In this document: one piece after another, positions 37,560 to 40,500 of the stretch
Numbering within the stretch: the first letter of the stretch is position 1
Layout: each line of letters begins with the position of its first letter
NCBI GenBank assembly: GCA_038087875.1
Contig: CM075993.1
Coordinates: 12,278,001 to 12,342,000 of the forward strand
Source of the DNA: Malacoraja senta
Lineage: Eukaryota
Direction: 5' to 3'
DNA: 64,000 nucleotides
Position numbers and translations under genes: made by a program
Notes under the pieces: generated by a model
What the model was told of the DNA's origin: nothing
Databases searched by the model: none
Seen by the model: only the letters and a program-made list of their open reading frames with translations

Positions 37560-40500
37560 TGACAAGCTGCTCATGCATTTAAACGCATTAACGCTATTGC
37601 GATCCACCGGCAGCAACGTTGCTGACTGTAAGGGAATTCCCAATCACAGGGGAATTCCCAACCTGGCTGTACCTGGAAACACCAGGGAGGCCTCCATTGT
37701 GTCCGGAAACGTGGCCGGCATGCAGGACTTCGTCAGACTGAAGTGCAGGGGTCTACGACCCCCTCTCCCTACCATCCTGCTAGCTAATGTACAATCACTG
37801 GAAAATAAAGTGGAGGACTTAGGATCAAGGCTGCTTTACCAAAGGGAACTGAGGGCATGCTCTGTGTGCTGTTTCATAGAGACATGGCTGCTTCCCAGAC
37901 TCAGCCATCCAGCCTGAAGGTTTCTCCATCCATCGTATGGACCAAACGCAGGCATCTGGGAAAGGGAGAGGCGGAGGCCATTCAGCGGTGCTGCTTCTTC
38001 CTGCATACAGGCAGCAACTGAAGAGAGCACCCCAGAGGTGAGGACTGCATGGAGCTAGTCTTGGGGGTTAGAGGAACAACTACAGGACTGCTTGAAGTCA
38101 GTCTACTGGGCAATGTTCAAGGACTCGGCAATGGTCCTGAATGAATACGCCACAGTCGTTACAGACTTCATAAGGAAACGTGTGGAGGACTGTGTTCCTA
38201 CGAAAACCTTCCGAGTGTTTCCTAACCAGAAGCCTTGGATGAACCGGGCGATGCGCATTCTTTTGAAGACCAGATCGCAAGCATTCAGATCTCGTGAGGC
38301 AGAGGTCTATAAGAAGTTCAGACACGACCTTGACAAGGCCATCAAAAAGGCCAAAAGGGACTTCCGCTCAAAGTTGGAGGATGAGGCGGATGTTCGTCAT
38401 CTATGGCAGGGCTTGAATGCCATCACCTCCTACAAGGTGAAATCAGGAGGCAGTTCAAGCGACAGCGAAGCATCACTCCCTGACGAGTTCAATGCATTCT
38501 ACGCACTCTTTGCTAGGTAGAACACTGATGTGCCTTCCCGAACCCCCATGCAGTCGCAGTCACAGAGGCGGACGTCAGAAGATCCTTCAGGGGGGTGAAC
38601 CCGCGGAAAACGCCTGGACCTGATGGTATACCCGGTCGAGTTCCCAAAACCTGTGCAGGCCAACTGGATGGAGTTTTTGCAGCCATTTTCAACCTCATTA
38701 CTGAGATCTGAGGTTCCCATCTGCTTTAAGAGGGCATCAATAAGAGTAACGACTATTGACCAGTGACACTAACGTCTGTGGTGATGAAGTGATTTGAGAG
38801 GTTAGTTATGGTGTATATCAACTCCTACCTAAACAAGAACCTTGACCACTACAGTTTGCCTAACTTCACAACAGGTCAACGGAGGATGCAATCTCACTGG
38901 CTCTCCATTACGCACTGGACCACTTGGACAATAAAAACAATTATGTCAGACTGTTGTTTATAGACTACAGCTCGGCGTTCAACACCATCATCCCCTCCAA
39001 GCTGGTTACGCGATCGGGAACCTGGGGTGGAGGGTACTGCACGAAGGAGTCCCTTGCAACCTGTTTCTCTCGCGGTTCACAGACTCGCCAGCTGCCTGCC
39101 ACTTTTGTGGGCTGGAAGAGTCTGTGTACCACGTATATATGGAGTGTGTGAGGTTGCAGCCCTGTTCCATTATCTAAAGGGGCTGCTCCTTGCTATCTGG
39201 CTGTACTTCTCATCCACCATCCTCATCTTCGGACACCGTGAGTGTTGGGGAAAGGGAAGGGCCGAGGATGTCCTGGTTGGGTTGCTCCTGAGCCTGGCCA
39301 AGCTGGCCATCCACGAGTCACGGCGCCAGGCAGAAGAGGGTTCTACCCGAGCCGGCTGCCTGCCCCTTTTCCGGGGTTACGTCCGCGCCCAGGTGGTGTT
39401 AGAGAGGGACTACGCGCTGTCCACGGACGCCCTGGGGGATTTCCGGGACCGATGGGCATCACGGTGGGTTGAATGCATCCTTGACAAGGATTGTAAGATA
39501 CTTGTATAATAGTTTATCGTATCTCGTGTATAATGGTAGTGTATTCTGTTTTGTTTTTTTACTGTACTGTATATATTATTTTAATATTTGAATAAATATT
39601 TTTGATCATAAAAAAAAGGCTGGGTACCAAGCTCATGGAACTGGGTCTCTGTGCATCCCTCTGCAATTGGGTCATCGACTTCCTCATCCACAGACCACAG
39701 TCTGTTCAAATTGGCAGAAATACTTAATTCTCATTAACAATCAGTACGGGAGCACCTCAAGGCTGAGTACTCAGCCCCCTGTTCTACTCACTCTATACTC
39801 ATGACTGTATAGCCGGACACGGTGCAAACTCCATCTTCAAGATAGCCGACGACACCACGGTTGTTGGACGAATTACAGAAGGTGATGAGTCAGAGTATAG
39901 AAGTGAGATCGACCGATTGACCAAATGGTGCCAGCACAACAACCTGGCTCTCAATATCTGTAAAACCAATGAACTGATTTTGAAAGAGGAAAGATGAGGA
40001 CCCACAATCCTGTTCACATCAATGGGATGATGTCGGAGAAAGTCAAAAACTTCAAATTCCTGGGCGTGCATATTTCCGACGATCTTTCCTGGATCCAGCA
40101 TACTGATGCAAGCACAAGGAAAGCACATCAGTGCCTCTACTTCCTGAGAAGATTATGGAGATTCAGTATGTCGAGGAGGATTCTCGTGAACTTCTACAGG
40201 TGCACAGTAGAGAGCATACTGACTGGTTGCCTTGAGGCCTGGTTCGACAACTTGAACGTCCAGGAGCTGAAAAGACTGCAAAAAGTTGTGAACACTGCCC
40301 AGTCCATCATCGGCTCTGACCTCCCCACCATAGTAGGGATTTATCGGAGTCGCTGCCTCAAAAGGGCAGCTAACTTCATTAGAGACCCACAATATCCTGG
40401 CCACACACTCATTTCACCCCTGCCATCGGGAAGAAGGTACTGGAGCCTGAAAATTATAACGTCCAGGTTCAGGAACAGCTTCTTCCCTACAGCCATCAGG

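What the first reader, a model, noticed from the sequence alone, without database searches (positions are those of the whole stretch)
38999..39627. Tx1-like retrotransposon hits the same site of a Rex-Babar LINE twice: candidate site-specific parasite of another LINE
Seen: two separate Rex-Babar copies (A at 10.6 kb, B at 39.0 kb) each carry a same-orientation 3' fragment of one Tx1-like family at the RT codons PSKL (CCCTCC-AAGCTGGTTAC). Both A-tails join A(A/G)GCTGG(T/G)TAC (12230-12240, 39617-39627). The 5' truncation points differ: copy 2 is about 75 nt longer. Known: the Tx1 clade contains many target-specific families (Tx1L in Tx1D transposons, Keno in U2 snRNA, Mutsu in 5S rDNA, Dewa, Kibi/Koshi). 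Inference: two independent insertions at one nucleotide imply a family specific for this Rex-Babar motif. I do not recall this target being described.
Basis: partly seen in the sequence, partly recalled or inferred. Interest (0 to 1): 0.72.

Follow-up and report, generated by a model that had tools for sequence, protein, structure and literature searches.

The report
Tx1 LINE targeting another LINE's gene
Two fragments of one jumping-gene family sit at the same base inside two copies of another jumping gene's reverse-transcriptase gene, likely as independent insertions guided by a cutting enzyme that prefers this short sequence, which would add a new kind of target to a group already known for choosing its sites.

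Summary
Observation confirmed. Both Tx1-like fragments in the window (2 of 2) lie in sense orientation at CCCTCC^AAGCTGGTTAC in two Rex-Babar-like RT genes. Each has its own 11-13 bp target duplication and 5' truncation. New evidence for independent insertion: the two inserts differ mostly at synonymous sites (28 vs 18.9 expected, P=0.002), the hosts do not (P=0.18), so the inserts likely came from different working source elements. In four runs of other organisms empty sites exist, the 3' junction appears to recur, and in the raw-read run 307 of about 393 reads run past copy B's 5' junction into upstream Tx1. Against strict specificity: at most about a third of family 3' ends in that run read straight into this flank. 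No genome was held, so no copy census and no endonuclease. Best reading: a Tx1-clade family with a strong, perhaps not exclusive, preference for this site (0.72). Tx1 targeting of DNA and LTR transposons is in print (PMC4494074); nine searches found no Rex/Babar target. The scan noted LINE-in-LINE Tx1 targeting on other DNA, not this target.

The parts
1..304 (+). Host A (Rex-Babar-like LINE), upstream part of the ORF; runs off the window's start; ends in the 5-bp duplication CAGAC (300-304) of an LTR element
   Evidence: 90% identical over aligned columns to host B 38375-38658, open frame 2-304
10270..10646 (+). Host A, first half of the RT domain up to ...[12 protein letters not shown]
   Evidence: 87% identical over aligned columns to host B 38656-39004; Pfam RVT_1 profile 10-80 below cut-off; 52% identical to the RT ORF at 58850
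10647..10657 (+). Copy A left target duplication AAGCTG--TACGA (GT missing; the last GA may be microhomology with the insert)
   Evidence: sequence
10658..11066 (+). Insert A: 5'-truncated Tx1-like ORF2 C-terminus, starting in the zinc-knuckle region
   Evidence: 86% identical to insert B; 64% protein identity to P0004; sister to insert B in the tree
11067..12109 (-). Later CR1-like LINE fragment inserted antisense into insert A, with 8-bp duplication GAGTGTAA (11059-11066 / 12110-12117)
   Evidence: sequence and RT ORF; the CR1 label is recalled
12110..12229 (+). Insert A: last codons, AT-rich 3' UTR and short A-tail (AATAAA lost)
   Evidence: aligns to 39489-39616
12230..12242 (+). Copy A right target duplication AAGCTGGTTACGA
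   Evidence: sequence
12243..12346 (+). Host A resumes in frame ([18 protein letters not shown]...), then is cut off; the rest is not in the window
   Evidence: 89% identical to 39628-39733
37760..38998 (+). Host B (Rex-Babar-like LINE), decayed ORF from the presumed endonuclease start to ...[12 protein letters not shown]; start approximate
   Evidence: translation
38999..39009 (+). Copy B left target duplication AAGCTGGTTAC
   Evidence: empty-site joints 39006->39625 in 4 of 4 runs
39010..39012 (+). Three extra letters GCG at B's 5' junction, matching neither the usual host continuation nor upstream Tx1; likely untemplated
   Evidence: loose ends: host consensus behind 39009 starts CAAG, Tx1 consensus joins before 39013
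39013..39616 (+). Insert B: 5'-truncated Tx1-like ORF2 C-terminus (CxxC zinc knuckle, stop 39507-39509), 3' UTR with AATAAA 39591-39596, A-tail 39610-39616
   Evidence: zf-RVT E=3e-4, below cut-off; homologous C-termini in full APE+RT ORF2s and in proteins named 'Transposon TX1'
39617..39627 (+). Copy B right target duplication AGGCTGGGTAC (two substitutions; relatives read T at 39624)
39628..40533 (+). Host B, second half of RT and C-terminal domain
   Evidence: translation; Pfam PF09004 E=2e-10

Best explanation
Two fragments of one Tx1-like LINE family lie at the same base of two Rex-Babar-like RT genes, likely as independent insertions made by a family whose endonuclease is predicted to prefer CCCTCC^AAGCTGGTTAC. 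Shown: same site and orientation, separate 11-13 bp duplications, different 5' ends, A-tails, and an interrupted host RT (about 8 codons after DYSS, before the ADDT motif). Inferred from the anatomy and from standard target-primed reverse transcription: the endonuclease nicks the bottom strand at the left edge of the duplication (5'-...CCAGCTT^GGAGGG-3'), the freed TT end pairs with the RNA's A-tail and primes reverse transcription, the top strand is cut 11-13 nt downstream, and the cDNA joins early, by microhomology in A and with three extra letters in B. The target is a protein-constrained stretch of an abundant LINE, so it is a renewable, harmless landing site, and each hit kills that host copy. 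The preference is likely strong but not shown to be exclusive.
For: (1) 2 of 2 Tx1-like pieces in the window are at the site; both hosts with the motif are occupied, both with a diverged motif are empty; chance about 1e-4 or less. (2) Each copy has its own duplication, and A's includes host-A letters (GA) on both sides. (3) A-versus-B differences in the insert: 30 of 55 at third positions; 28 synonymous against 18.9 expected in a shuffle stratified by letter and CpG (P=0.002; without CpG sites 17 vs 11.4, P=0.03); host 31 vs 27.1 (P=0.18). A single dead composite would decay evenly in both. (4) At 33 of 40 listed places where B departs from four other organisms, A has the majority letter at 29, shares B's at 2, 0 of 10 in the host. 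(5) Run X22: 307 loose ends before 39013 continue as upstream Tx1 ORF, depth 393 at 39019, so B's 5' junction is not the family's usual form. (6) X4 contig 24 bridges 39584-39796 with 32 other letters; a 1-base gap at 39619, which I read as an A-tail joined to GCTGG, occurs in 4 of 4 runs (1, 5 and 1 contigs, 2 reads). (7) Many Tx1 families target other transposons (PMC4494074, passages), and Tx1L endonuclease nicks almost only its target in vitro (PMC1950540, passages).
Against: Only two copies were read in full. In X22 at most 150-175 of 481 family 3' ends (31-36%; 18% against depth 851 at 39574) read straight into this flank, and part of that depth is empty-site host reads; my rough split leaves 2-31%. 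X1 record 7 stops at 39606 with at least 59 unaligned letters, possibly another flank. No host-to-insert joints at other truncation points were among the 15 of 584 joints shown. A GGTT(C)ACG microhomology at A's truncation point fits a later deletion as well as a truncation, and B's extra G equals A's next letter. Uncorrected dN/dS is below 1 for both host (0.44) and insert (0.27) and the two do not differ significantly (bootstrap 0.11). Overall divergence of insert (14.4%) and host (11.4%) does not differ significantly (P=0.16). The endonuclease was not recovered.
Confidence: 0.72

Rival explanations
1. Hitch-hiking: one Tx1 insertion made a composite that was then copied many times in trans by working Rex-Babar elements; A later lost about 75 nt by a microhomology deletion.
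For: The 3' junction seems to recur in four organisms and several contigs of one, as an amplified composite would give; host and insert divergences are of similar size and dN is equal (0.095 vs 0.097); microhomology at A's junction.
Against: Synonymous excess in the insert only; 0 of 10 shared derived host letters; B's 5' junction is not the common form in X22 (307 of about 393 run on into Tx1); the deletion would have to start at the duplication's edge.
Confidence: 0.12
2. Strict specificity: the family in this species is a dedicated parasite of this Rex-Babar site and nearly all copies sit there; the low read-through in X22 reflects a separately amplified defective subfamily and long A-tails.
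For: 2 of 2 copies in the window; in X22, 1079 reads (depth 1849 at 39135) carry a 32-bp duplication that shifts the frame, so a defective subfamily may dilute the count; A and B share a minority letter at 39345.
Against: At most about a third contiguous read-through in X22; no census in the window's genome. This is a stronger form of the best explanation, and its probability is part of the 0.72.
Confidence: 0.3
3. Local duplication: A and B are one locus duplicated long ago within about 40 kb, with later deletion and nested insertions in A.
For: Same orientation and close spacing; A's flanks cannot be compared because host A runs off the window upstream and is cut at 12346.
Against: The self-comparison lists no run of collinear matches downstream of A and B, only dispersed repeats (read by eye); synonymous excess in the insert; same junction difficulty as hitch-hiking.
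Confidence: 0.07
4. A broad-target Tx1 family with a short consensus (for example a nick before AAGCT) plus a local burst; the double hit is a mild hot spot, not a preference for Rex-Babar.
For: Most 3' ends in X22 do not read into this flank.
Against: A 5-6 base consensus occurs tens of times in 64 kb, so two hits on the homologous base stay unlikely; the junction appears in all four runs where random placement predicts a share near 1e-6 (assuming a 3 Gb genome).
Confidence: 0.08

Closest known systems
Tx1-Mar families, Tx1-8_Crp / Tx1-4_AMi and Tx1-9_AMi of crocodilians (Kojima 2015, PMC4494074; abstract and passages of introduction, methods, results and discussion seen, section 16 in full; Fig. 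3 labels and supplements not visible)
   Same: Tx1-type LINEs inserted preferentially at fixed positions of another abundant transposon; old copies (85-87% to consensus); preference can be partial (that paper calls a family target specific from 20% of flanks); hitch-hiking was the rival there too and was tested with truncated copies.
   Different: Their named targets are Mariner and Harbinger DNA transposons and LTR retrotransposons; here it is the RT coding sequence of a LINE of another clade, in sense orientation. No tree with those families could be built.
Tx1L of Xenopus laevis in the piggyBac-type Tx1D (as described in passages of PMC4494074, PMC1950540 and PMC6719617; the original papers were not read)
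   Same: APE-type LINE whose endonuclease picks one site in another transposon; nearest named relatives of the window's protein are labelled 'Transposon TX1'.
   Different: Target is a non-autonomous DNA transposon; specificity was shown biochemically. Here the target is protein-coding LINE sequence and nothing was assayed.
Keno (U2 snRNA), Kibi and Koshi (microsatellites) (passages of PMC4494074); Mutsu and Dewa (recalled, no call)
   Same: Sequence-specific members of the Tx1 clade in fishes.
   Different: Targets are host RNA genes or simple repeats, not a retrotransposon.

Membership tests
Tx1 clade (L1 group) non-LTR retrotransposon | ORF2 C-terminus with zinc knuckle homologous to Tx1 ORF2 | tested here: met
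   CHFC...HVYMEC motif, zf-RVT E=3e-4 below cut-off; homologous to C-termini of 1290-1300 aa APE+RT proteins and of proteins named Transposon TX1 at 25-45% identity
Tx1 clade (L1 group) non-LTR retrotransposon | 3' A-tail, 5' truncation and target-site duplication | tested here: met
   both copies
Tx1 clade (L1 group) non-LTR retrotransposon | RT-domain phylogeny places it in Tx1 rather than L1 proper | tested here: inconclusive
   only a 182-column C-terminal tree of 37 chosen rows, without L1 outgroup or target-characterised families; A and B are sisters (100/94) in a clade with sturgeon and sea-turtle proteins; the family's own RT was not recovered
Tx1 clade (L1 group) non-LTR retrotransposon | N-terminal APE endonuclease and ORF1 | not testable with these tools
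   both copies are 5'-truncated; no genome held; closest proteins are 58-66% identical fragments
Target-specific Tx1 family (criterion of PMC4494074: one sequence type in over 20% of flanks) | More than 20% of copies flanked by the same target | tested here: inconclusive
   2 of 2 in the window; in run X22 between 2 of 481 (directly listed) and 31-36% (upper bound for contiguous reads)
Target-specific Tx1 family (criterion of PMC4494074: one sequence type in over 20% of flanks) | Independent insertions rather than hitch-hiking | tested here: met
   distinct truncations and duplications; synonymous excess in insert only, P=0.002; weaker in the dN/dS contrast; two copies only
Target-specific Tx1 family (criterion of PMC4494074: one sequence type in over 20% of flanks) | Endonuclease cleaves the target preferentially | not testable with these tools
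   needs a full-length member and an assay
Rex1/Babar clade (host) | Non-LTR RT with DYSSAFNTI / GAPQG / ADDT motifs and the PF09004 C-terminal domain | tested here: met
   that these mark Rex1/Babar is recalled and comes from no call
Rex1/Babar clade (host) | RT phylogeny with named Rex1/Babar elements | not tested
   no named Rex1/Babar reference was fetched; presence of Rex-Babar and Tx1 in whale shark is stated in PMC8455134 (passage)

The most novel reading that the evidence does not exclude
A Tx1 lineage of cartilaginous fishes is a dedicated hyperparasite of Rex-Babar LINEs: its endonuclease reads codons beside the host's catalytic RT motif, every hit kills a host copy, and the second major host subfamily (AAA CTT ATC instead of AAG CTG GTT: four base changes in three codons, one V-to-I change; loose ends behind 39000 in X15, X1 and X4) is a recoded escape variant, a LINE-versus-LINE arms race readable in genomes. 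A distant teleost Tx1 fused to Rex-Babar RT just past the same site (P0052) would then be a convergent case.
Probability: 0.15. Interest if true: 0.72.

Novelty: new variant of a known kind. Interest (0 to 1): 0.45.

Why it matters
Tx1 endonucleases switch targets often, and each new natural enzyme-target pair helps to explain how an APE domain reads a sequence and widens the set of site-specific integrators. A target inside another LINE's RT gene would be a class not named in the passages I could read (RNA genes, microsatellites, satellites, DNA and LTR transposons). Because the target is protein-constrained and each hit inactivates a host copy, occupancy of the two host subfamilies makes a transposon-versus-transposon conflict directly countable. 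The copies are old and the general phenomenon is known, which limits the surprise.

Tried and rejected
No own genome, so no copy census. No further loci with flanks: DNA motif in metagenome contigs 0; protein scans of viral and metagenome contigs 0 confirmed of 17 and 322 pattern matches; host-site motif in genome and viral contigs 0; alignment A1 too diverse to scan. No full-length ORF2 of the family: longer-protein search with P0004 gave none among 8000 scored; best relatives 58-66% identical fragments. No public run holds the locus itself (largest share of words 0.28 among 22 rows); the four runs laid are other organisms. Divergence of host versus insert does not separate the models (P=0.16, non-CpG 0.08, transversions 0.057). 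The depth split rests on guessed aligner behaviour and only bounds the share. P0052 was considered as a family member and rejected: it falls in another clade and only its protein model was seen. Chance coincidence rejected. No tandem repeat at either junction. Paper searches for a Rex/Babar or LINE target of Tx1; none of the listings or passages read names one. Repbase, Kojima and Fujiwara 2004, Fig. 3 labels and supplements of PMC4494074 and Christensen 2000 could not be seen and may hold such a case. Earlier notes of this scan by sequence, place and relatives: nothing.

Full report
What is there. The window is repeat-rich vertebrate DNA, likely of a shark or ray (inference: close named relatives of the insert's protein, 53-59% identical, come from Rhincodon, Pristis and Heterodontus). 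Two copies of a Rex-Babar-like LINE (clade label recalled from the motifs [18 protein letters not shown] and Pfam PF09004) are each interrupted right after the codons for IPS by a same-strand 3' fragment of one Tx1-like family. In B the order is AAGCTGGTTAC (38999-39009), GCG, ORF2 end from 39013, stop 39507-39509, AATAAA, seven A, and AGGCTGGGTAC (39617-39627). In A it is AAGCTG--TACGA (10647-10657), insert from 10658, about 75 nt shorter, a short tail and AAGCTGGTTACGA (12230-12242). The host frame resumes after both right duplications. Insert A is split by a later antisense CR1-like piece with its own 8-bp duplication, and host A by a 10-kb LTR element with a 5-bp duplication. The site lies inside the host RT, about 8 codons after the DYSS motif and before ADDT. 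A tblastn with 6 relatives finds no third Tx1-like piece; two more distant Rex-Babar-like RT pieces have another sequence at the site and are empty. A second hit within 5 bases of the homologous site on the same strand has a chance of about 4e-5 to 1e-4.

What the insert is. It encodes a zinc-knuckle C-terminus (zf-RVT E=3e-4, under the cut-off). A search of 1.84 billion representatives with its relative P0004 returned 380 proteins, 150 listed, among them full APE+RT ORF2s of about 1300 aa and proteins that their sources name Transposon TX1. In a tree of 37 chosen C-terminal rows (182 columns, no L1 outgroup) A and B are sisters (100/94), in a clade with sturgeon and sea-turtle proteins. The family's own RT and endonuclease were not recovered, so Tx1 membership rests on the C-terminus and on the insertion anatomy.

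One origin or two. A composite of an interrupted host RT and a truncated Tx1 ORF is dead in both parts, so copies of it should differ evenly over codon positions. With columns next to gaps dropped, the inserts differ at 55 of 385 sites, 30 of them third positions; 28 changes are synonymous against 18.9 in shuffles stratified by letter and CpG context (P=0.002; without CpG sites 17 vs 11.4, P=0.03). The hosts differ at 79 of 701 sites with 31 synonymous against 27.1 (P=0.18). So the inserts likely come from two source elements that diverged under selection. The contrast is weaker by uncorrected dN/dS: host 0.44, insert 0.27, equal dN, dS 0.22 vs 0.36, bootstrap share 0.11. Overall divergence (host 11.4%, insert 14.4%) is not significantly different (P=0.16). 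Of the 40 listed places (of 1663) where B departs from four other organisms I could score 33 in A (7 lie outside A's aligned parts): A has the majority letter at 29, B's letter at 2, something else at 2; in the host 10 of 10 are majority. That list favours B's private changes, so it is weak support. Against independence: a GGTT(C)ACG microhomology at A's truncation point also suits a later deletion, and B's first extra letter equals A's next letter.

Other organisms. No genome is held and no run holds this locus. I laid 4 of 22 listed runs, from four organisms and four studies, on 38800-39850 at 80% likeness (the tables show only their best rows). Both families are abundant. Empty sites (39006->39625) occur in 4 of 4 runs (10, 13 and 9 contigs, 115 reads). 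In the raw-read run X22, 307 loose ends before 39013 continue as upstream Tx1 ORF against depth 393 at 39019, so B's 5' junction is not the family's usual form there. X4 contig 24 bridges 39584-39796 in one piece with 32 other letters and 9 gaps. A one-base gap at 39619 appears in all four runs (1, 5 and 1 contigs, 2 of 150 reads); I read it as an A-tail joined to GCTGG, since an empty host gains nothing from that gap (inference). These junctions could be orthologues or paralogues. Against strict specificity: X22 depth is 851 at 39574, 481 at 39607, 150 at 39619 and 175 at 39624, so at most 31-36% of ends read straight on; subtracting empty-site reads under guessed aligner settings leaves 2-31%. 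Random placement would give about 1e-6 for an assumed 3 Gb genome. X22 also holds a large subfamily with a 32-bp duplication (1079 reads) that may have other flanks. No host-to-insert joints at new truncation points were among the 15 of 584 joints shown. A second host subfamily reads AAA CTT ATC at the site (103, 112 and 91 contigs behind 39000 in X15, X1, X4); whether it is ever hit is unknown.

How it likely works. By standard target-primed reverse transcription (established knowledge, not tested here) the duplication marks a bottom-strand nick at 5'-CCAGCTT^GGAGGG-3', with up to two T to pair with the A-tail, and a top-strand cut 11-13 nt on. Target choice in Tx1 elements is set mainly by the APE endonuclease (PMC4494074 passage; Tx1L-EN nicks almost only its site, PMC1950540 passage). 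I therefore infer an endonuclease preference for this motif (0.72), strict in this species with probability about 0.3. Rivals: hitch-hiking composite 0.12, short-consensus hot spot 0.08, local duplication 0.07.

Compared with what is known. PMC4494074 (passages; section 16 in full; figure labels and supplements unseen) names Tx1 targets in piggyBac, Mariner and Harbinger transposons, LTR retrotransposons, U2, U5, 5S, satellites and microsatellites; its main text has no word starting with 'rex'. PMC6719617, PMC3747384, PMC9004415 and PMC8455134 were seen as passages only and name no such target; all other papers were seen as search listings. Nine searches found no Tx1 family in Rex/Babar, but Repbase and subscription papers are outside the library. 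Unchecked notes of this scan describe Tx1-like LINEs targeting other LINEs, Penelope ends and LTRs on other DNA, none this target. One lead: 1 of 157 stored proteins, P0052 (KAI4884328.1, Prochilodus magdalenae), joins a distant Tx1 C-terminus to Rex-Babar-like RT that starts about 21 codons past the same site; it lies in another clade, only the gene model was seen, and chance adjacency is possible.

Verdict. Real feature; likely a Tx1-clade family with a preference for a coding motif of another LINE clade; a new variant of a known kind. Interest 0.45; 0.72 if dedicated targeting with host escape (probability 0.15) holds.

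Noticed in passing
window 305-10269: LTR retrotransposon (RT and RNase H; Gypsy label recalled) nested in host A with 5-bp duplication CAGAC; LTR copies about 94% identical; the 3' LTR is split between 8662 and 10095 by a 1.4-kb insertion with an internal inverted repeat.
   Followed up: partly
window 11067-12109 (-): CR1-like fragment inserted antisense in insert A just before the stop codon, 8-bp duplication GAGTGTAA: three levels of nesting.
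   Followed up: partly
window 39118-39149, run X22: 1079 reads carry a 32-bp tandem duplication in the zinc-knuckle coding region, a frame-shifting change in a majority subfamily of organism H: an amplified defective Tx1 derivative.
   Followed up: no
window 39000, runs X15, X1, X4: Second major host subfamily reads AAA CTT ATC ACC where the hit copies read AAG CTG GTT ACC: four base changes, one conservative residue change, all inside the duplicated target.
   Followed up: no
P0052 residues 369-776: Prochilodus magdalenae gene model KAI4884328.1 fuses a distant Tx1 ORF2 end to Rex-Babar-like RT starting about 21 codons after the homologous site.
   Followed up: partly
window 36450-36860 (+): Exon-like beta-lactamase-family segment (PF00144, E=8e-20), resembling vertebrate LACTB (recalled); host B lies just downstream on the same strand, likely in an intron.
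   Followed up: partly
window 50925-58916 (-): Broken retrovirus-like pol pieces (RNase H 52620-53294, RT 54342-55016) beside a 188-bp tandem duplication at 50968-51390, interrupted by an L1-group C-terminal fragment at 56015-56644.
   Followed up: no
window 10318-10333 and 38711-38726: The host carries AGGTTCCCATCTGCTT, two letters from the SINEU-3 duplication AGGTTCCCATCAGCAT given in PMC4494074; no insertion here, probably chance; coordinates approximate.
   Followed up: no
window 18801-20551, 26070-28741, 62101-64000: Three long copies (83-90% identical) of another repeat with RT-like and GIY-YIG-like motifs (Penelope label recalled), next to the 200-base N run near 18601-18800.
   Followed up: no
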